In this document: one piece after another, positions 9,798-25,741 of the stretch | How positions within the stretch are numbered: the stretch's first letter is position 1 | Layout: each line of letters opens with the position of its first letter | Origin: Deltaproteobacteria bacterium SG8_13 | GTDB taxonomy: Bacteria > Desulfobacterota > Desulfobacteria > Desulfobacterales > SG8-13 | Assembly: GCA_001303025.1 (NCBI GenBank) | Contig: LJNK01000014.1 | Coordinates: 2,998-66,997, forward strand | Reading direction: 5' to 3' | Length of the DNA stretch: 64,000 nucleotides | The notes under the pieces: generated by a model | Databases searched by the model: none | Told to the model about the DNA's origin: nothing | The model's input: only the letters and a program-made list of their open reading frames with translations | Position numbers and translations under genes: made by a program

Positions 9798-9914
9798 CCG
9801 ATGTCCGGACGAAACCATCCGGCCGGCGCATTTGTTCGGAGGCAGCTTCAACGGGAGGGGAGGAATCTTTCCCGTTTAAAATGATATGGCCGGAAAGCGG
9901 ATTCGGGTGGTGTT

Positions 9915-11114
9915 ATGAGCGAATCAAAACAAATTATCCGGGTCGGGTTGGTCGGCAGCCGTTTTGCAGCCGAAATCCATTATGCAGCCTATCAACGCAT
10001 TGCCGGAAATGGCGTCGAAGTGGTGGGGGTCACATCCAATACCGAGGAGCATCGACGCACGTTCGCTGAAAAAAGGGGAATCGTCGCTTTTGAGTCCCTT
10101 GAGCAGATGTTGCCGGAAGTGGATGCAATCGACAACTGCACCCCTGGTTGGGCCCACGAGCCTGTGACAGTAGCGGCCCTGCAAGCCGGCAAGCACGTAA
10201 TTGTCGAAAAACCCTTTACAGGATACTACGGCCCTGCGGAAAGAACGGGGTTCAAAGGCAATCGCTTCCCCAAAAGCGAAATGCTGGAAGGCGCCATGGG
10301 CAGCGCCCGACGCATCATCGACGCTGCTGCAAAGAGCCATACAAAGCTCTGCTACGCAGAGAACTGGGTGTATGCCCCGGCCGTCCAGAAAGAGGCAGAG
10401 ATCATCTTCAAGACCAAAGCACAAATCATGTGGGCCCTGGCCGGCCACTCCCATTCCGGCAGCCCCTCTCCGGCCTACGGCACGTGGCGGCTGTCGGGCG
10501 GAGGATCGGTCGTAGGCAAGTCCTGTCATCCGCTGACCGCCATACTGTATCTAAAGCAGGTCGAGGGACTGGCTCACAGCGGCAAACCGATACGACCCAA
10601 AACGGTCAGCGCCCGAACCCATGAACTGACCCGCAATCCCGGGTTCATCGACAAGGGCTTTATCCGGACTCAATACGACGACATCGAGGATTACTGCCAG
10701 TTGCATGTTGTTTTCGACGACGGCATGGTGGCCGACGTCTTTGCATCGGAAATCGTGATGGGAGGAGTGCACAACTGGATCGAGTTGGTGGCCAACAACC
10801 ATCGGGTCAGGTGCAACCTGAGTCCGGTTGATGCCATGCAGTTTTACAATCCCCTGGAGGAGCAATTGGATGACGTCTACATCATGGAGAGGGTCGGCAC
10901 CAAGCAGGGATGGTTAAACCCGGCTCCGGATGAAAGCTTTATGTTCGGCTACCCCCAGGAGCTTCAGGACTTTATCGAAGCGATCGTCGAGGATCGCCCA
11001 CCGAAGTCGGGCCCGCTGCTGGCATCCGATACCGTAAGCGTCCTGTATTCAGCCTATGTATCGGCTGAAGAAAAAGGACGCGAAGTCGAAATTCCCATCG
11101 ATCGGAAATTATAA
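9915..11114 (+). CDS. Gfo/Idh/MocA family oxidoreductase
   Basis: Rossmann-like VGLVGSRF; AGKHVIVEKP motif. Confidence 0.88.
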   Translation: MSESKQIIRVGLVGSRFAAEIHYAAYQRIAGNGVEVVGVTSNTEEHRRTFAEKRGIVAFESLEQMLPEVDAIDNCTPGWAHEPVTVAALQAGKHVIVEKPFTGYYGPAERTGFKGNRFPKSEMLEGAMGSARRIIDAAAKSHTKLCYAENWVYAPAVQKEAEIIFKTKAQIMWALAGHSHSGSPSPAYGTWRLSGGGSVVGKSCHPLTAILYLKQVEGLAHSGKPIRPKTVSARTHELTRNPGFIDKGFIRTQYDDIEDYCQLHVVFDDGMVADVFASEIVMGGVHNWIELVANNHRVRCNLSPVDAMQFYNPLEEQLDDVYIMERVGTKQGWLNPAPDESFMFGYPQELQDFIEAIVEDRPPKSGPLLASDTVSVLYSAYVSAEEKGREVEIPIDRKL

Positions 11115-11244
11115 CCGCATAACCGCATATACCTGTCGACGTGCAGTGCCATCGGGTGTTTCTCTCCGCTGATGGTTTCGAGTCTGCCGCCCGGCGGCGA
11201 ACAGCTCGCAGCGCAGTAAAAAACAGGAAGGGTTGAGAAAAGCA

Positions 11245-12331: not shown

Positions 12332-12335
12332 AATA

Positions 12336-12351
12336 ATGAGCATATACTCAT
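12336..12351. promoter_or_regulatory. Palindromic operator ATGAG-CATATA-CTCAT (copy 1)
   Basis: Inverted repeat just downstream of the -10 box; near-identical copy at 14471-14494. Confidence 0.6.
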
Positions 12352-12482
12352 AACATAACGGGTTCGTTGGCGCCTCGGAAAGTACCGGTGCATTGCCGGC
12401 AGCAAGATCTTGGATGCTTGCAGCCGCTTTTCAGCAGGAGGCGGTACGGTGGTTGAAACGTTCACGTGAAAGGGGGGACCCC

Positions 12483-13802
12483 ATGTCTGATCAAGTCGTT
12501 TCGCTCGGCGGTAAAAAACGGTCGACCTTTATCGACAAGGTAAAAGAACTCCTTCCGGAAGGCGGCAATTTAAGTCTATGCCTGACCTGCGGCGCCTGCT
12601 CTTCCGGATGCCCGGCAACGGGTCTGGATGGCATGGATCCGCGCAAGTTTCTGCGCATGGCCGCGCTGGGCATGGATGAGGAAATCGAAAAGTCGGACTG
12701 GCCCTGGATGTGCACGATGTGCCAGCGCTGCATTTATGTTTGCCCCATGAAGATCGATATCCCCCAGCTGGTCTTCAATGCGCGGGCGCTCAGACCAAGG
12801 GAGCAGCGGCCCAAGGGGATATTGGGATCCTGTGATCTGGCGCTGAAAAATCCGAGCACCAGCGCTATGGGGGCAACACCGGAAGACTTTGCCTTCGTGG
12901 TGGAAGATGTCCTGGAAGAATACCGGGAAGCGCAGCCCGAATTTGCCGACATGCAGGCGCCCATCGACAAACAGGGGGCCGAGTTTTTTGTGAACCAGAA
13001 TTCGCGGGAGCCGGTGACCGAGCCCGATGAACTGGTTCCGCTGTGGAAAGTTCTGCATCTTGCCGGGGTGGACTGGACGTACGGCAGTCACGGCTGGGCC
13101 GGGGAGAACTACTGCATGTTCCTGGCAGACAACGACGCCTGGGAGCACATCACCCGCACCACCGCCAATCAGGCCGATAAGCTGGGCTGTAAAATCTTTC
13201 TCAACACCGAGTGAGGGCATGTGACCTTTTCGGTCCGGGCCGGACTGAAAAAATTCAACATCGACTATAATTTTGAAGTCAAAAACATTTACGAATATTA
13301 CGCCAAATGGATCCGTGAAGGTAAACTGAAGGTCAATTCCGACTGGAACAAGGACCTTCAAATCAAGTTTACCGTCCAGGATCCCTGCCAGATCGTGCGC
13401 AAAAGTTATGGGGATCCCATCGCCGAAGACCTCCGGTTTGTGGTCAAGACGATGGTGGGGGAAGAAAATTTTATCGAGATGCATCCCAACCGCTCCAACA
13501 ACTATTGCTGCGGCGGCGGAGGTGGCTTCCTGCAATCCGGGTACAAGGAACAGCGACTCGAATTCGGGAAACTGAAGGACCAGCAGATTCAAAAGACCGG
13601 GGCGGCCTATTGCATCGCCGGCTGCCACAACTGCCACGCCCAGATTCACGAGCTCAGCGATCATTACGGGGCAGGCTACCACGTGGTGCACCTGTGGACC
13701 ATTCTCTGTCTGGCCATGGGCGTGCTCGGACCCAACGAACGCGAGTACCTGGGAGACGATCTCAAGGAAGTGAACGTCTTTCATCCGGAGACGGCCATGT
13801 AG
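12483..13802 (+). CDS. HdrD/DsrK/TmcB-like (Fe-S)-binding CCG-domain oxidoreductase, selenoprotein (Sec244), 439 aa
   Basis: ORFs 12393-13214 and 13221-13802 are in the same frame, separated only by TGA (13212-13214) in N-T-E-[TGA]-G-H, the usual TECGH site. Two CxxCxxCxxxCP ferredoxin motifs, QDPCQ, NYCCGGGGG and GCHNC are present; a SECIS-like hairpin follows. Confidence 0.88.
13227..13251 (+). promoter_or_regulatory. Bacterial SECIS-like stem-loop
   Basis: TTTTCGGTCCG-GGC-CGGACTGAAAA: 11-bp stem with one G-U pair; G-containing apical loop 23 nt after the in-frame UGA. Confidence 0.75.
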
Positions 13803-13948: not shown

Positions 13949-14314
13949 ATGGATGACAGAATGACGGTTGAGGAATTGGAGCAGCGCTGGAAAAATGCGT
14001 TGGCCACGACCCAGTCCGCTGTTACCCGGCATCCAGGCGAATACCGTGAACTGAAGTCCCTGGCCGCCGAAATTGTCGCCAGGCCACTGGATATCGGTGA
14101 TTACCTGCCTGCCACGAAGAAGCTCGTTGCGCTGCTCCAGAAGATGGACCCCGGCGGAAAAGGTACGATTTTTTACTTTTTCAACAAGCGCTTCGCACCG
14201 TCGAGCATCTGGGATGTCTGCTGGCTGCGGCTGGAGTGCAGGGACCTGTTGGCCCATCTGGCGGTATTCGACAAGTGGCATATGAATACCTGCCGGCTGA
14301 AGGTCGTTAAATAA
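13949..14314 (+). CDS. Hypothetical protein (121 aa)
   Basis: ATG start, protein-like composition, fills the gap between the selenoprotein and TRAP operon 2; no family recognised. Confidence 0.6.
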   Translation: MDDRMTVEELEQRWKNALATTQSAVTRHPGEYRELKSLAAEIVARPLDIGDYLPATKKLVALLQKMDPGGKGTIFYFFNKRFAPSSIWDVCWLRLECRDLLAHLAVFDKWHMNTCRLKVVK

Positions 14315-14470: not shown

Positions 14471-14494
14471 TATTATGAGAATATACTCATAATA
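14471..14494. promoter_or_regulatory. Palindromic operator TATTATGAG-AATATA-CTCATAATA (copy 2) next to TTGACA (14461-14466)
   Basis: Perfect 9-bp arms; same core as 12336-12351; upstream of the second dctP. Confidence 0.65.
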
Positions 14495-20113: not shown

Positions 20114-22732
20114 ATGATAACCGATAGCTTCATTCGCGATTTACGCCGTATTGTCGGTGACACCCATGTGTCGGTGAACCGGGCGGCAGCCGAACTGTAT
20201 TCCTATGATGCCTCACTGGCCAGAGGCCAGCCGGGTGTTGTGGCATTTCCAGCCGACACCGGCGAAGCAGCCAAGATCGTCCGCACGGCATATCAGGCCG
20301 GTGTCCCGTTCGTCCCTCGCGGTTTCGGAACGAATCTTTCAGGCGGAACGGTGCTGCCTTCCGGCGGCCTGGTGGTCTGCCTGTCCCGTTTCAACCGCAT
20401 CCTCGGCATTTTTCCGCAAAGCCGCTATGCCGTAGTTCAACCCGGTGTCACCAATCTCGAACTTCAAAACGCGTTGGCTCCGCTCGGTTTTTTCTATGCC
20501 CCGGATCCCGCCAGTCAAAAAGTGGCCACCCTCGGCGGCAACGTGGGTGAAAATTCCGGGGGGCCCCGCTGTCTGAAATACGGCGTGACCACCAACCACG
20601 TGCTGGGAGTGGAACTGATACTGCCGGATGGAGAACTCGTTCGCATCGGCGGTCCGGCTCTCGACCCGCCGGGCTATGATCTGCGCGGTGCGATCGTCGG
20701 CAGCGAGGGGACCTTTGGTGTGGTTACCGAAGTTACGGTTCGCATTCTCCCCTCTCCGGCAGATATCATTACCATGCTCGCCATATACAACGATATCGGC
20801 GATGCCGCCCGCAGCGTATCGGACATCATTGCGGCCGGGATGGTGCCGACCACCCTGGAGATGATGGATGCACCTATCATCAAGGCGGTGGAGGACAGCT
20901 ATGCCTGCGGTTATCCCCGGGACGCTGCAGCGGTATTGATCATCGAGGTGGAGGGCGCGCATACCGGACTGAGAGAGCAGGCTCGGCAGATCGATGAAAT
21001 CTGCATGCGCAACCGCTGTCGCAGCATACGGGAAGCCAAGGACAATGCCGAGCGGAATCGACTCTGGGAAGGCAGGCGCGGTGCGTTTGGAGCAGTGGCC
21101 CGGTTGGCGCCGAATTATCTGGTAAACGACTGTACAGTGCCGCGAAATAAACTGCCGCAGGCGCTGGCCACGGTAGCGGACATCACCAAGAAATACCGCT
21201 TCGAACATGGAAACGTGTTTCACGCGGGGGACGGAAATCTGCATCCGCTGATATTCTTCGATTCCCGGGATCCGGATCAGCTCGAACGTGTGAAAAAGGC
21301 CGGCTGGGAAATCATGGTCGCCTGTGTCGATCTGGGTGGAACCATCTCCGGAGAGCACGGTATCGGCCTGGAAAAAATGGATGCCATGGGCCTGGTGTTT
21401 ACCGAAGAAGATTTTGAGGCGCAGCGAAGTCTCAAGCGTGCCTTTGACCCCGACAACCGGCTCAACCCCGGCAAAGTGATACCCGCACCGGCGACCCCTG
21501 CCGGATCGGATCCGCATCAGGCTGCAACGGCGGGTTTTTCGCCACCGCAGCCCGGTGCGGTAACGGCGGCCGAACAGGAGCTGCTGGAGAAAATACGGGA
21601 AGCCATTTCAGCCCGACAGCCGGTGCTGCCGCTCGGATGCGGAACATATCCGGATTTCGGAAATCTTACGGATCACCGGACCCTGCCGCTGCCTGCCAGC
21701 GGATTGAGCGAAATCATCGACTATGACCCACCCAACCAGGTTGTAACGGTCGGCGCCGGTGTTCCCCTGGCGGCACTGCAGAACGAGCTGCGGGCCAATG
21801 ACCAGTGGCTGCCGCTGCGTCCTCCGGTGTCGCTGCAGCAACATTCGATCGGCGGATTGGTTGCCCTGGCAGCCTGCGGTCCGGAGCGCATGGTCTATGG
21901 CGCTCCCCGGGATCTTTTGTTGGGGCTGCGGTTTATCAGTGGCAAAGGGAGTGTTATTTCGGCCGGCGGCAAAGTGGTGAAAAATGTGGCCGGCTACGAT
22001 ATGACGCGATTGATTACCGGTTCGGCGGGGACCCTCGGGTGTATCGTCCGGGCAACCCTGCGAGTGGCGACGATCCCTGAGTGTTGCATGGCGGTGACGG
22101 TCGCCGGCGATTTGGATACCTGCGCAGCTGTGGCCACCACCATCATCACTTCGAGCCATCTGCCGGCATTTACCGTCGCGACGCCTCCCGACAACGGCAG
22201 TGATTCCGCCACACACGGAAAGCCGGACTGGCATCTTCACATAGGCTTCGAGGGGTTTGGCGATACGGTTCGGGATCAAGCCGACCGGGTTGCCGAGCTG
22301 TGTGAGGCGGAGGGGCTGCGAAAGGTCGGCCTGGAGGAATACGATGTGTATGACGGCAAATTCAGCCGATTTTTCCGCCGCATCGACCGGCAGGCTTATA
22401 TTCTTAGAGCGGATTTACCGCTTGCCCATATTGCGGATTTTATCCGGTCCGGGAACGGTCGGCTTCCCCGTTCGGGCGTGATGCTCGATTTGGGATGCGG
22501 TCGGGTTCTGGGTGGATTGGATCAACTCAGCGATACCGACTGGACGCAATTGTGCGGCCGTGCGAAACAGTGCGGCGGACACCTGCTGCTGGAAAAGGCG
22601 CCTGTCGAATTTAAACGGCGCCATGACGTCTTCGGTCCCAAACGTTCCGCCTGGCAGGTCATGCACAAAGTCAAGGGCGAACTCGATCCCCAACGACTGT
22701 TCGCCCCCGGCAGGCTCCCCGGCAAAGTATGA
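20114..22732 (+). CDS. FAD-linked oxidoreductase, fused GlcD-like plus GlcE-like glycolate/D-lactate dehydrogenase subunits
   Basis: First about 460 aa: GFGTNLSGG, PDPAS, GGNVGENSGGP, HAGDGNLHP, GEHGIG, LNPGK. After a Pro/Ala linker, a second FAD domain: GGKVVKNVAGYD, LFAPGR. Confidence 0.88.
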   Translation: MITDSFIRDLRRIVGDTHVSVNRAAAELYSYDASLARGQPGVVAFPADTGEAAKIVRTAYQAGVPFVPRGFGTNLSGGTVLPSGGLVVCLSRFNRILGIFPQSRYAVVQPGVTNLELQNALAPLGFFYAPDPASQKVATLGGNVGENSGGPRCLKYGVTTNHVLGVELILPDGELVRIGGPALDPPGYDLRGAIVGSEGTFGVVTEVTVRILPSPADIITMLAIYNDIGDAARSVSDIIAAGMVPTTLEMMDAPIIKAVEDSYACGYPRDAAAVLIIEVEGAHTGLREQARQIDEICMRNRCRSIREAKDNAERNRLWEGRRGAFGAVARLAPNYLVNDCTVPRNKLPQALATVADITKKYRFEHGNVFHAGDGNLHPLIFFDSRDPDQLERVKKAGWEIMVACVDLGGTISGEHGIGLEKMDAMGLVFTEEDFEAQRSLKRAFDPDNRLNPGKVIPAPATPAGSDPHQAATAGFSPPQPGAVTAAEQELLEKIREAISARQPVLPLGCGTYPDFGNLTDHRTLPLPASGLSEIIDYDPPNQVVTVGAGVPLAALQNELRANDQWLPLRPPVSLQQHSIGGLVALAACGPERMVYGAPRDLLLGLRFISGKGSVISAGGKVVKNVAGYDMTRLITGSAGTLGCIVRATLRVATIPECCMAVTVAGDLDTCAAVATTIITSSHLPAFTVATPPDNGSDSATHGKPDWHLHIGFEGFGDTVRDQADRVAELCEAEGLRKVGLEEYDVYDGKFSRFFRRIDRQAYILRADLPLAHIADFIRSGNGRLPRSGVMLDLGCGRVLGGLDQLSDTDWTQLCGRAKQCGGHLLLEKAPVEFKRRHDVFGPKRSAWQVMHKVKGELDPQRLFAPGRLPGKV

Positions 22733-22861
22733 TCCTGCGACGCGCAAGGTCAGGCGATGCAGGAATGTTGCAGGGCAAGGCGATGATCGACCGTTCCCGC
22801 CACCGGGAGAGACGCACGGGTTACACCAACCATTTGCACATGGGTATTGGATCGGTGTCCA

Positions 22862-24106
22862 ATGGAAATTACTGCCTTTTACGATGAAATAGCACATTGC
22901 AATAAATGCGGGTTTTGCCAGGTAGCATGCCCGATCTTTCGATCCACCGGGCACGAGTCCGGAGTCGCGCGCGGCCGTCTGGCGCTGCTGCGCGGGATCA
23001 TCGAGGGGCGGTTGGACTGGACCGACAACCTCCAGGGGCCGCTCTTCGACTGCCTGCTCTGCGGCGCCTGCACAGCCAACTGCTTTCCAGCCATTCCCAC
23101 TTCCGACCTGGTCATACGGGCGCGAGCCCAGTACCTGGAGCGGGTGGGTCGCAAACCGGTTCACCGGCTGCTCTTCGAGCAGTTGCTGCCCCATCCGAGC
23201 CGGCTCCACATGGCTGCGCGGGCCGTCGCCCTGACGAAAAAAACCGGACTTTCGAGCCTGGCGCGTGCGTTGGGATTGTTGCGCATCTTCGGACGCGATT
23301 TCGCCAGTGCGGAGGGTATTGTCGAGACGTTTCCGCTGAAAGAACTGCGCGATAAAATCCGCCCCGGCATTTATGAAGGCAGCGGAAAAGATCATACCGT
23401 CGGTTACTTCATCGGCTGCGGCGTCGATATCGTTCAGCAGGAAACCGGCGCTGCCACCCTGCAGTTGCTTCGAAAAACAGCTCGACAGGTGCACGTATTA
23501 GACAACTGCTGCTGCGGTCTGCCGGCCTGGTCTTACGGGGATTTGCAGATCGCACGGAAACTGGCACAAAAAAACCTCCAAGCACTCGCTTCCGACCGGC
23601 TGGATGTCATCGTCACCGATTGTTCGAGCTGCGCATCCTTTTTGAAAAAGTATCCGGTGCTGTTTGCGGAAGATGACCGGCAGGAGGCAGCGGCAAAAAC
23701 TTTTTCCGCCAAAATTCGCGACATGGTTGAATGGCTCGACGACGTTGCGGACCCGCTGCCGGCGTCTGAAGCCCCCATCCGGGTAACCTATCACGATCCC
23801 TGCCACGCCGTCCGGGGGCAGGGTATTGTAAAGCAGCCCAGAGAAATGTTGAAAAAACTTCCGGGTATCGATTATGTCGAGTTGCCCGAAGCAGACTGGT
23901 GCTGCGGAGGTGCCGGCGCTTATGCACTGTCCCAGTATGATTTGTACCGCCAGGTGTTGGACCGTAAAATCGCCAACCTGAAGAAGACCGGAGCCGATGT
24001 GATCGCCACTTCCTGTCCGGCCTGCATTATTCACCTTTCCTATGGCGTTCGAAAGCACGGTCTGACAACGCGTGTCTGTCACCTGTCGGAAATTATCAAC
24101 CGATAG
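22862..24106 (+). CDS. glcF: Glycolate oxidase iron-sulfur subunit GlcF-like
   Basis: CNKCGFCQVACP, CLLCGACTANC, CCG, YHDPCH, WCCGGAG, TSCPAC. Confidence 0.85.
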   Translation: MEITAFYDEIAHCNKCGFCQVACPIFRSTGHESGVARGRLALLRGIIEGRLDWTDNLQGPLFDCLLCGACTANCFPAIPTSDLVIRARAQYLERVGRKPVHRLLFEQLLPHPSRLHMAARAVALTKKTGLSSLARALGLLRIFGRDFASAEGIVETFPLKELRDKIRPGIYEGSGKDHTVGYFIGCGVDIVQQETGAATLQLLRKTARQVHVLDNCCCGLPAWSYGDLQIARKLAQKNLQALASDRLDVIVTDCSSCASFLKKYPVLFAEDDRQEAAAKTFSAKIRDMVEWLDDVADPLPASEAPIRVTYHDPCHAVRGQGIVKQPREMLKKLPGIDYVELPEADWCCGGAGAYALSQYDLYRQVLDRKIANLKKTGADVIATSCPACIIHLSYGVRKHGLTTRVCHLSEIINR

Positions 24107-24142
24107 GATGAAAATCCCACTTTAACCAAACGGAGGGCAATT

Positions 24143-25741
24143 ATGGAGGCCACCATAAAAGTCAACGGCATTGAAGTTTTTGGCCCTGTTTCGCCGTCAT
24201 TTCAACAGATTCTAACTCTCGAGGCACTTCAGTTCGTCGGGGAGCTGGCCAGAGAGTTCGAATCCCGTAGAAAAGAACTGCTGCAGCGCCGCAAAGAGGT
24301 TCAAAAGGCGATCGACGGCGGGTCGTTTCCCGATTTTCTGCCCGAAACCCAGCACATCCGCGACGGTGACTGGAAAATAGCACCGGTCCCCGCGGATCTT
24401 CAGGACCGTCGGGTGGAAATTACCGGGCCGGTGGAACGCAAAATGGTGATCAATGCACTCAATTCCGGTGCTTCGACCTATATGGCCGACTTCGAAGATT
24501 CGCACTCGCCGACCTGGGAGGCCACGATTCAAGGCCAGATCAATCTCGTCGATGCGGTCAATGGAACCATCGAATTCGCCAGCCCGGAAGGCAAGCAGTA
24601 TCGCCTGGGCGACAAAACCGCGACCCTGATCGTGCGCCCCCGGGGATGGCACCTGGTGGAAAAGAACGTGCATGTGGACGGTGAGCCGATTTCGGCAAGC
24701 CTGTTCGATTTTGGCCTGTTCTTCTTTCACAATGCGAAGACCTTGATCAGCAAAGGAACCGGGCCGTACTTTTACCTGCCCAAACTGGAAAGTCACCTGG
24801 AAGCCCGCCTGTGGAATGACGTCTTCGTTCGCGCCCAGCAGCAGATGAACATCCCGGTGGGCACCATCAAAGCCACGGTGCTGATCGAAACCATCCTGGC
24901 GGCTTTTGAGATCGATGAAATCCTGTACGAGTTGCGCGATCACATGGCCGGCCTGAACTGCGGCCGGTGGGATTATATCTTCAGCTTTATCAAAAAGTTT
25001 AAAAACGTGCCGGACTATATCTTCCCGGACCGGGCGCAAATCACCATGACGCGCCATTGCATGCACGCGTATTCCCTGTTGGTGATCCAAACCTGCCATC
25101 GTCGCGGTGCTCACGCTATTGGCGGCATGGCGGCTCAAATTCCGATTAAGGGCGACCCGCAGCAAAACGAGGCCGCATTGCGCAAGGTGCGGGAGGATAA
25201 AACCCGCGAGGCCACCGATGGCCACGACGGAACCTGGGTCGCTCACCCCGGCCTGGTACACATCGCCCGTGAGGAGTTCGACAAAGCCATGCCGACCCCC
25301 AACCAGGTTTCCAAACTGCGCGAAGACGTCGTGGTCACGGCCAAGGATCTGCTCAAACTGCCCAAAGGCACCATTACCGAAGAAGGATTGCGCACCAACA
25401 TCAGTGTCGGAGTTCAGTACATGGCTTCCTGGCTGAACAACAACGGTTGCGTGCCGCTCTACAACCTGATGGAAGATGCCGCCACAGCGGAGATTTCGCG
25501 CACCCAGGTCTGGCAATGGGTTCATCATCCCAAAGGGATCCTTGAAGATGGGCGCAACGTTACGCTGGAGCTGTTCCGCCAGGTGATGGCCGAAGAAATG
25601 GACAAGATCAAGCAGTCGGTCGGAGAGGATCGTTTTGTCGGCGAGAAGTACGCCTTGGCGGCGCAACTGTTCGATGAGATTATTGCCGGCGATACGCTGG
25701 AAGAGTTTTTGACCTTGCGGGCGTACGACCATCTGGATTGA
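24143..25741 (+). CDS. aceB: Malate synthase A
   Basis: 532 aa; [51 protein letters not shown]. Confidence 0.96.

What the first reader, a model, noticed from the sequence alone, without database searches (positions are those of the whole stretch)
12483..13802. Hidden selenoprotein: UGA-recoded HdrD/DsrK-like Fe-S oxidoreductase split by the ORF caller
The two ORFs are one reading frame with a single TGA at the Cys position of the conserved TE-C-GH CCG-domain motif. An 11-bp hairpin with a G-containing loop sits 23 nt downstream, which is bacterial SECIS geometry. Selenium would then be a ligand or near-ligand of a non-cubane-type cluster site. The first CCG motif is also degenerate (ENYCMF). 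No membrane partner or electron donor is adjacent, so its pathway is open.
Basis: partly seen in the sequence, partly recalled or inferred. Interest (0 to 1): 0.75.

Follow-up and report, generated by a model that had tools for sequence, protein, structure and literature searches.

The report
Known-family selenoprotein: HdrD-like Fe-S reductase
The two adjacent ORFs are one gene for a soluble iron-sulfur oxidoreductase whose in-frame TGA encodes selenocysteine, but the selenoprotein family and its "UGH" motif are already published, so this is a correct annotation fix rather than a discovery.

Summary
Window 12483-13802 (+) is one 439-codon frame with a single TGA at 13212-13214. Every full-length homolog has Cys at that position (LNTE-C-GH).

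All 20 orthologs read at the DNA level carry TGA in the same column. It is followed by a conserved hairpin with a GGC or GGA loop and two covarying pairs. Cys-encoding homologs lack this hairpin. The genome has selA, selB, tRNA-Sec and a selD that itself contains TGA.

The protein is a fusion of an HdrC-like and an HdrB-like part, i.e. an HdrD-type architecture. It has two ferredoxin-type cluster motifs, one complete CCG motif and a vestigial first CCG motif (ENYC...TE-U-GH).

Sec244 aligns with the conserved Cys of the T/GECGH motif in DsrK and HmcF, which has been proposed to be catalytic. It also aligns with Cys581 of mycobacterial EtfD. His246 aligns with EtfD His583, a ligand of the noncubane cluster.

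The family is not new. "Fe-S oxidoreductase (GlpC)-like" selenoproteins with the motif UGH were published in 2006 and listed again in a 2026 review, and Desulfobacterium autotrophicum HdrD4 is annotated as a selenoprotein.

Orthologs and a second copy in this genome mostly sit in hdrA-mvhD-X-metV-metF clusters. The window copy is detached from such a cluster and is followed by a conserved 121-aa ORF of unknown function.

The parts
12483..13802 (+). Complete selenoprotein gene: 439 codons plus TAG stop. Encodes a soluble HdrD-like (HdrC+HdrB fusion) Fe-S oxidoreductase.
   Evidence: One frame with a single TGA. Full-length homologs are 64-74% identical over 95-100% of the query. Pfam finds Fer4 and CCG domains. 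NCBIfam's nearest families are TmcB, HmcF and DsrK, all below their cut-offs.
12570..12755 (+). HdrC-like ferredoxin domain (residues about 30-91) with two 4-Cys motifs: C33/36/39/43 and C77/80/83/87.
   Evidence: Pfam Fer4_8 covers residues 30-91. PDB HdrC chains match residues 15-105. The Cys residues are invariant in alignment A4.
13113..13115 (+). Cys211 codon in ENYCMF, the only Cys left at the 'CC' position of the vestigial first CCG motif.
   Evidence: ENYCMF occurs in 121 of 121 homologs. The residue is invariant in A4. It is not conserved in HmcF or DsrK.
13212..13214 (+). UGA = selenocysteine 244, in the motif NTE-U-GH.
   Evidence: Cys in all full-length homologs. TGA in 20 of 20 orthologs. 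Aligns to the T/GECGH Cys of this genome's own HmcF and DsrK. Also aligns to HdrB TE-C-NGC and EtfD Cys581.
13227..13251 (+). SECIS-like hairpin. It is 11 bp in this copy; the conserved core is 8 bp (13230-13237 with 13241-13248). Loop GGC is at 13238-13240.
   Evidence: Fold. 91.8% of cells are paired, against 35-54% for slid controls. Two pairs show compensatory changes. Present in all Sec forms and absent in the three Cys-form genes (four loci: L034-L037).
13371..13646 (+). Complete CCG domain (C302, C342, C343, C381, C384), the predicted site of a noncubane [4Fe-4S] cluster.
   Evidence: Pfam CCG covers residues 297-388, E = 1.8e-10. Aligned to the C-terminal CCG motif of HdrB. The five-Cys motif binds a noncubane cluster in HdrB and EtfD (PMC10861901; PMC13083937).
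13949..14314 (+). orf121, a conserved small ORF of unknown function immediately downstream. Candidate partner protein.
   Evidence: No Pfam match. Homologs lie directly downstream of the same gene in L023, L027, L036, L042, L043 and a JGI contig. It has one invariant Cys.
12334..12353 (.). 20-nt palindrome about 130 nt upstream of the start codon. It is repeated at 14473-14492, upstream of the second TRAP transporter operon. Possible shared operator.
   Evidence: A third near-identical copy lies at G000:C118:73370.

Best explanation
This is a real selenocysteine-containing gene. UGA244 is decoded as Sec by SelB and tRNA-Sec, directed by a hairpin whose GGC loop begins 23 nt (conserved 8-bp stem 15 nt) downstream of the UGA.

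The product is a soluble HdrD-type protein. An HdrC-like domain with two [4Fe-4S] clusters passes electrons to an HdrB-like domain. That domain keeps one complete CCG motif, predicted to bind a noncubane [4Fe-4S] cluster. From the second cluster site it retains only Cys211 and Sec244.

Sec244 sits in the T/GECGH motif shared with DsrK, HmcF and TmcB. In that class a single noncubane cluster plus this conserved Cys is thought to reduce a disulfide or trisulfide substrate.

I infer the following. His246 helps ligate the noncubane cluster, as His583 does in EtfD. The selenolate next to it is the nucleophile or leaving group that attacks an S-S type substrate, possibly cycling through a Se-S bond with Cys211. 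Electrons normally arrive from an HdrA/MvhD flavoprotein module, as in Hdr-type methylene-tetrahydrofolate reductase complexes.

What is shown: the gene structure, the Cys/Sec column, SECIS conservation, the Sec machinery, the domain architecture, and the gene neighbourhoods of relatives.

What is inferred: cluster types, the chemical role of Sec, and the partners of this detached copy.
For: Recoding:
- There is a single in-frame TGA.
- Cys occupies that column in all full-length homologs.
- TGA is in the same column in 20 of 20 orthologs at 78-88% identity, and most of about 94 relatives' hits are flagged '1 TGA'.
- The hairpin is conserved with compensatory changes, G-C to U-A and G-C to A-U.
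- The hairpin is missing in TGC-encoding homologs, including a tandem Cys/Sec pair on one contig.
- selA scores 608 bits, selB scores 328 bits, selD carries its own TGA, and tRNA-Sec is present.

Architecture:
- Pfam finds Fer4 and CCG domains.
- PDB sequence searches hit HdrC and HdrB.
- The AF2 model has pLDDT 85.
- The best fold matches are EtfD 9ojn (TMq 0.65), then HdrB.

Position of Sec:
- E243-U244-G245-H246 are invariant with this genome's own HmcF (920 bits) and DsrK (720 bits).
- The literature states that the T/GECGH Cys is the remnant of the missing noncubane cluster and is probably catalytic (PMC10861901).
- The profile alignment puts U244 on EtfD Cys581 and H246 on EtfD His583, a ligand of noncubane cluster D2.

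Partners:
- Orthologs, and the paralog at C118:67377-68681, lie between hdrA-mvhD and metV-metF.
- The Hdr-type MTHFR (methylene-tetrahydrofolate reductase) concept is described in PMC9430772.

Prior knowledge of the family:
- PMC1794560, PMC13188914 with motif 'UGH', and PMC2702500 on HdrD4.
Against: - There is no direct evidence of selenium incorporation or of expression.
- The hairpin's energy is unremarkable against shuffles (z = -1.16). No Rfam family matched at the gathering threshold.
- At this locus there is no hdrA, mvhD, metVF, etf or membrane partner within the window. The neighbours are an SDR, a GFO/IDH/MocA dehydrogenase and TRAP transporters, and this arrangement is not conserved. 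The partner assignment therefore rests on relatives only.
- The role of Sec as a nucleophile rather than an Fe ligand cannot be decided.
- One HMMER alignment (5odc_B) places the column on the second Cys of HdrB's CNGC rather than the first.
Confidence: 0.85

Rival explanations
1. Sec244 is mainly a metal ligand rather than a redox nucleophile. The selenolate would bind an Fe of the noncubane cluster, or, together with Cys211, a residual small cluster, and so tune its potential. The gene is still a selenoprotein, but the chemistry would be electron transfer rather than Se-S exchange.
For: U244 aligns with ligand cysteines of the first cluster in HdrB and EtfD. The DsrMKJOP paper itself notes that the conserved Cys 'might be binding the cluster' to give the open S=1/2 state. 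EtfD, the best fold match, uses its CCG clusters purely as an electron wire.
Against: Only two of the four or five ligand positions of the first site survive. From general knowledge, Sec for Cys replacement in bacteria is most often at catalytic redox residues. The DsrK class acts on a protein trisulfide.
Confidence: 0.2
2. The TGA is a true stop. The locus would be a pseudogene, or would encode two separate polypeptides: a 243-aa HdrC-like protein and a 193-aa HdrB-like protein starting at GTG 13221.
For: Gene callers output exactly these two pieces, here and in metagenome contigs. HdrC and HdrB are separate subunits in methanogens.
Against: The stop falls precisely on an invariant Cys codon inside a conserved motif. 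It is kept in the same column in 20 of 20 orthologs across many families of the order, and flanking sequence is conserved in frame on both sides. A conserved hairpin follows it and is absent from Cys forms. The break would cut through the first CCG-like domain, not between the HdrC and HdrB parts. The full Sec machinery is present.
Confidence: 0.03
3. The TGA is a sequencing or assembly error for TGC or TGT.
For: None specific. The source appears to be a draft assembly of 125 contigs.
Against: The same TGA occurs in independent genomes and metagenome contigs. It also occurs in the second paralog of this genome.
Confidence: 0.01

Closest known systems
'Fe-S oxidoreductase (GlpC)-like' bacterial selenoprotein family (Zhang, Gladyshev and co-workers; motif UGH). 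Includes Desulfobacterium autotrophicum HdrD4.
   Same: It is an Fe-S oxidoreductase with a CCG domain. It has a single Sec in a U-G-H motif with Cys homologs. It occurs in Deltaproteobacteria / Desulfobacterales. It is linked to hdrA and frhD (= mvhD) genes in relatives.
   Different: This copy is detached from hdrA/mvhD and is followed by a small conserved ORF. I could not fetch the review's reference accession to confirm that it belongs to the same subfamily rather than to the roughly 37%-identical WPE-U-GH subfamily.
DsrK / HmcF / TmcB, the cytoplasmic catalytic subunits of sulfate-reducer membrane redox complexes.
   Same: It has two ferredoxin-type clusters, one complete CCG motif and the T/GECGH motif. 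Sec244 aligns with the motif's Cys, which is proposed to be catalytic.
   Different: Scores are far below the family cut-offs: 120 vs 400, 169 vs 750 and 174 vs 735 bits. It is soluble with no adjacent cytochrome b partner. It has an extra invariant Cys211. It uses Sec instead of Cys.
HdrB/HdrC of HdrABC, and the HdrCBA-MvhD-MetVF (Hdr-type) methylene-THF reductase of acetogens.
   Same: It has an HdrC-like plus HdrB-like fold. Orthologs and the paralog sit between hdrA-mvhD and metV-metF.
   Different: HdrC and HdrB are fused here. The first CCG motif is degenerate, so two noncubane clusters are not possible. The window copy is not in such a cluster.
Mycobacterial EtfD (PDB 9ojn).
   Same: It is the best structural match (TMq 0.65). 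The C-x-H motif of EtfD's first CCG domain aligns with U-G-H. His583 ligates the noncubane cluster in EtfD.
   Different: EtfD is membrane-anchored with a heme b. It keeps four Cys for a linear [3Fe-4S] cluster, is a pure electron wire and has no Sec.

Membership tests
Bacterial selenoprotein (SelB/SECIS-dependent UGA recoding) | In-frame UGA aligned with Cys in homologs | tested here: met
Bacterial selenoprotein (SelB/SECIS-dependent UGA recoding) | Stem-loop shortly downstream of the UGA with G in the apical loop, conserved among Sec forms | tested here: met
   The hairpin has loop GGC or GGA, with the conserved stem starting 15 nt after the UGA. It occurs in 20 of 20 Sec forms, has 2 covarying pairs and is absent from Cys forms. 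No Rfam model matched.
Bacterial selenoprotein (SelB/SECIS-dependent UGA recoding) | selA, selB, selC (tRNA-Sec) and selD in the genome | tested here: met
   selA is at C123 and selB at C22. selD is at C34 with its own TGA. tRNA-SeC(tca) was found by ARAGORN.
Bacterial selenoprotein (SelB/SECIS-dependent UGA recoding) | Selenium demonstrably incorporated | not testable with these tools
   This needs 75Se labelling or mass spectrometry.
Fe-S oxidoreductase (GlpC)-like selenoprotein family | Sec in a U-G-H motif of a CCG-domain Fe-S oxidoreductase | tested here: met
   The gene has NTE-U-GH. The review lists 'UGH' for this family.
Fe-S oxidoreductase (GlpC)-like selenoprotein family | Operon association with hdrA and frhD/mvhD | tested here: inconclusive
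   Met for most orthologs and for the paralog on C118. Not met at this locus.
Heterodisulfide reductase HdrD/HdrB | Two complete CX(31-39)CCX(35-36)CXXC motifs, giving two noncubane clusters | tested here: not met
   Only the second motif is complete (C302, C342/343, C381, C384). The first retains only C211 and U244.
Heterodisulfide reductase HdrD/HdrB | HdrC-like 2x[4Fe-4S] domain plus HdrB-like fold | tested here: met
DsrK / HmcF / TmcB | Single CCG motif plus a conserved T/GECGH cysteine | tested here: met
   Alignment with this genome's own HmcF and DsrK. The motif is defined in PMC10861901. Here Sec takes the place of the Cys.
DsrK / HmcF / TmcB | Score above the NCBIfam equivalog cut-off, and an adjacent membrane cytochrome b-type partner | tested here: not met
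   Scores are 119.6 vs 400, 168.5 vs 750 and 173.5 vs 735 bits. No such neighbour is present.
Hdr-type MTHFR complex (HdrCBA-MvhD-MetVF) | Gene clustered with hdrA, mvhD, metV and metF | tested here: not met
   Not clustered at this locus. Clustered for the paralog C118:62683-70430 and for loci L017, L019 and L024-L026.

The most novel reading that the evidence does not exclude
Sec244 may directly ligate an iron of the noncubane [4Fe-4S] cluster in the resting enzyme. That would be a natural Fe-Se(Cys) bond in an iron-sulfur cluster, opening on substrate binding. In the same reading, the conserved single-Cys protein orf121 downstream would be its dedicated protein-thiol substrate, analogous to DsrC for DsrK. 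The hdrD(Sec)-orf121 pair would then be a stand-alone module.
Probability: 0.12. Interest if true: 0.65.

Novelty: new member of a known kind. Interest (0 to 1): 0.25.

Why it matters
In practical terms, this gene and its many orthologs are routinely split into a 243-aa and a 193-aa 'protein' in genome and metagenome annotations. As a result, the catalytic domain architecture is lost from databases.

In scientific terms, Sec replaces exactly the Cys of the T/GECGH motif. That fits the current proposal that this residue is a redox-active catalytic residue next to the single noncubane cluster in the DsrK/HmcF/TmcB class. A metal-ligand role, as Sec has in [NiFeSe] hydrogenase or formate dehydrogenase, is not excluded.

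It also marks the unknown HdrCB-type site of Hdr-type methylene-THF reductase clusters in Desulfobacterales as doing demanding thiol or selenol chemistry.

None of this changes the picture of selenoproteomes, because the family has been known since 2006.

Tried and rejected
- **Rfam scan of the window:** only a tRNA was found and no SECIS family matched. This is uninformative for bacterial SECIS elements.
- **Thermodynamic significance of the hairpin:** weak (z = -1.16). I relied on comparative evidence instead.
- **Functional inference from the immediate neighbours:** I tested whether the SDR, the GFO/IDH/MocA dehydrogenase and the two TRAP transporters are conserved next to the gene. They are not found next to any ortholog, so this route was dropped.
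- **Single-sequence PDB search:** it aligned only the second CCG domain. A profile that included HmcF and DsrK was needed to align the U-G-H region.
- **Distance from residue 244 to the cluster site in the AF2 model:** coordinates are not exposed, so this could not be measured.
- **A hidden hdrD-like gene between the two hdrA-like genes on C71:** tblastn found none.
- **Whether orf121-linked copies form one clade:** they do not. The linkage is therefore either old or recurrent.

Full report
**1. Observation**

ORF listing and the raw sequence show two table-11 ORFs in one frame: 12393/12483-13214 and 13221-13802. Only TGA at 13212-13214 separates them. Reading TGA as Sec gives a 439-residue protein with ...KIFLNTE-U-GHVTFSVRAGLKKF....

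TTTTCGGTCCG (13227-13237) pairs with CGGACTGAAAA (13241-13251) around a GGC loop. The loop begins 23 nt after the UGA. On its own the fold is not statistically striking (z = -1.16 for an 85-nt stretch).

**2. Is it a selenocysteine codon?**

A homology search returned 2426 proteins at E <= 1e-10. The best 120 are full length (about 432-447 aa) and 57-74% identical. In 119 of these 120, plus the query, the motif is [LIV][NS]TE-C-GH. ENYCMF is present in all 121.

Six-frame searching of 60 related genomes found the gene in 52. Nearly all hits at 59% identity or more, about 81 of 94, carry exactly one in-frame TGA. One of these is a second copy in the same genome at C118:67377-68681.

I read 20 of these loci at the DNA level. 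TGA is in the same column in 20 of 20, flanked by ACN-GAR and GGN-CAY.

Downstream, all Sec forms keep an 8-bp stem, C(A/G)(G/A)UCC(U/G) with its complement, and a GGC or GGA loop. 91.8% of cells are paired, against 35-54% when the partner is slid. Two pairs show compensatory double changes, U-A to G-C and G-C to A-U.

The three Cys-encoding relatives read at the DNA level (TGC) have no such hairpin. On one contig (L037) a Cys copy without the hairpin lies next to a Sec copy with it.

The genome encodes the following:
- selA, 608 bits
- selB, 328 bits
- selD, which itself contains a TGA
- a tRNA-SeC with anticodon tca

**3. What the protein is**

Pfam finds a ferredoxin-type dicluster domain (residues 30-91) and one CCG domain (297-388). 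NCBIfam's nearest families are TmcB, HmcF and DsrK, all far below their cut-offs.

PDB sequence searches match HdrC with the N-terminal part and HdrB with the C-terminal part. The protein is therefore an HdrC-HdrB fusion, which is the HdrD architecture.

An AlphaFold2 model built on 41 homologs has mean pLDDT 85 and pTM 0.86. Its best structural neighbours are mycobacterial EtfD (9ojn, TMq 0.65) and then several HdrB chains.

The invariant cysteines are:
- C33/36/39/43 and C77/80/83/87, giving two cubane clusters
- C302, C342, C343, C381 and C384, a full CCG motif
- C117
- C211
- residue 244

**4. Where the Sec sits**

I aligned the protein with this genome's own HmcF (C62:64315-65724, 920 bits vs cut-off 750) and DsrK (C108, 720 bits vs cut-off 400). 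E243-U244-G245-H246 fall on an invariant E-C-G-H.

The DsrMKJOP paper (PMC10861901) makes three relevant statements:
- DsrK, HmcF and TmcB have only one CCG motif.
- The strictly conserved Cys in T/GECGH is a leftover from the missing second noncubane cluster.

A profile that included HmcF and DsrK aligned the region to solved structures. U244 matches the first Cys of HdrB TE-C-NG-C. One of the HdrB alignments shifts it to the second Cys. U244 also matches Cys581 of EtfD in T-C-P-H-C, and H246 matches EtfD His583. In the EtfD structure, Cys581 ligates the first (linear 3Fe-4S) cluster and His583 completes the coordination of the adjacent noncubane cluster (PMC13083937).

So the selenium atom is predicted to sit at the vestigial first-cluster site, two residues from a probable ligand of the surviving noncubane cluster. 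This is inferred from alignment. I could not measure distances because model coordinates are not exposed.

Cys211 occupies the old 'CC' position. It is invariant in this soluble family but absent from HmcF and DsrK. It is therefore a candidate resolving partner for a Se-S bond.

**5. Mechanism proposed**

- *Shown:* a SECIS-directed Sec in a soluble HdrD-like protein with one complete CCG motif.
- *Inferred, about 0.6:* electrons pass through the two cubane clusters to the noncubane cluster. Sec244, next to that cluster, attacks an S-S or S-S-S type substrate, or takes the second sulfur that HdrB would bind on its second cluster. The result is a ferredoxin:thioredoxin-reductase-like 'one cluster plus one chalcogen' site.
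- *Alternative, about 0.2:* Sec is chiefly an Fe ligand that tunes the cluster.

**6. Partners and pathway**

The immediate neighbours here are a GFO/IDH/MocA oxidoreductase, an SDR, two TRAP transporter operons and, further on, a glycolate-oxidase-like GlcD/GlcF pair with malate synthase. None of the immediate neighbours is conserved next to orthologs.

Clustering of flanking ORFs shows the recurrent neighbours instead. These are an HdrA-like flavoprotein and MvhD (Pfam FlpD) upstream, and MetV (Pfam PF12225/DUF5981, described as methylene-THF reductase C-terminal) plus MetF (MTHFR) downstream.

The second copy in this genome lies in exactly this arrangement: C118:62683-70430, hdrA/L-mvhD-X-metV-metF. 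A further mvhD-metV-metF set on C72:97508-99403 lacks an hdrD-like gene.

This is the gene order of the Hdr-type methylene-THF reductase of acetogens. The HdrCB site of that enzyme still has no known substrate (PMC9430772).

A roughly 37%-identical subfamily with WPE-U-GH and its own hairpin also sits directly after an hdrA-mvhD fusion.

A maximum-likelihood tree places the window copy inside a well-supported Sec clade whose members are mostly hdrA/metVF-linked. Cys forms lie outside this clade under the drawing-only midpoint root, and there is one apparent Sec-to-Cys reversal.

The window copy is thus a detached member of a family that normally works with HdrA/MvhD. Whether it serves the C72 cluster in trans is untested.

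**7. Small downstream ORF**

orf121 (13949-14314) has no Pfam match. Its homologs are found directly downstream of this same gene in several places:
- two related genomes
- Desulfonema magnum, next to a Cys form
- two short metagenome contigs
- a JGI contig where the caller lists 243 aa + 193 aa + 121 aa in a row

It has one invariant Cys, in LR-x-E-C-x-DLL. It is a candidate partner or substrate. This is speculation.

**8. Comparison with what is known, and novelty**

[quoted passage not shown] It was found again in Olavius symbionts (PMC1976440).

A 2026 review lists 'Fe-S oxidoreductase-like protein, motif UGH, one Sec' among families predicted with high confidence and of unknown function (PMC13188914).

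The D. autotrophicum genome paper annotates HdrD4 and HdrF2 as selenoproteins (PMC2702500).

The finding is therefore a correct re-annotation of a new member of a published family.

I did not find one link stated in the papers searched: that the family's Sec coincides with the T/GECGH Cys, proposed to be catalytic, of DsrK/HmcF/TmcB and with the C-x-H of EtfD. This is a modest interpretive addition, not a new kind of system.

**9. Verdict**

Novelty is low and interest is 0.25.

Noticed in passing
window 13949-14314 (+): A 121-aa ORF with no Pfam match lies directly downstream of this selenoprotein gene. The same pairing recurs in at least six other places, including next to a Cys form in Desulfonema magnum. 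The ORF has a single invariant Cys.
   Followed up: partly
window 12334-12353 and 14473-14492; G000:C118:73370: A near-identical 20-nt palindrome, TTATGAG-N-ATATACTCATAA, lies upstream of the selenoprotein gene and upstream of the second TRAP transporter operon. A third copy lies upstream of NifX-like and MinD-type Fe-S ATPase genes on another contig. It may be a shared operator; the regulator is unknown.
   Followed up: partly
G000:C118:62683-70430: A second Sec-containing paralog (72% identical, TGA in LNTE-U-GH) lies in an hdrA/L-mvhD-hdrD-metV-metF cluster. C72:97508-99403 carries mvhD-metV-metF without an hdrD-like gene.
   Followed up: partly
G000:C34:9626-10549 (-): The selD gene of this genome itself contains an in-frame TGA, so it is probably a Sec-containing SelD.
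   Followed up: no
L038:5546, L039:5683, L040:5348, L041:5254: A subfamily about 37% identical to the window protein has Sec in WPE-U-GH and a different short hairpin (GACCAGGUCUGGUC). In the one locus whose neighbours were read (L038) it lies directly downstream of an hdrA-mvhD fusion gene.
   Followed up: partly
window 20114-25741 (+): This stretch encodes an 872-aa FAD-linked oxidase (GlcD-like) fusion, a 419-aa protein matching the Pfam CCG domain in two stretches (GlcF-like) and malate synthase. It looks like a glycolate or 2-hydroxyacid utilisation block downstream of the second TRAP transporter.
   Followed up: no
L037:8001-9320 and 9822-11140: On one metagenome contig a Cys form (no hairpin) and a Sec form (with hairpin) of the gene lie in tandem. 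In the tree, the Cys form P0002 is nested inside the Sec clade, which suggests a Sec-to-Cys reversal.
   Followed up: partly
G000:C108 (DsrK, about 75827-77485 on the reverse complement): This genome's own DsrK has Asp in place of the last Cys of the CCG motif (C-A-I-D). The DsrMKJOP paper reports the same substitution for many sulfate reducers.
   Followed up: no
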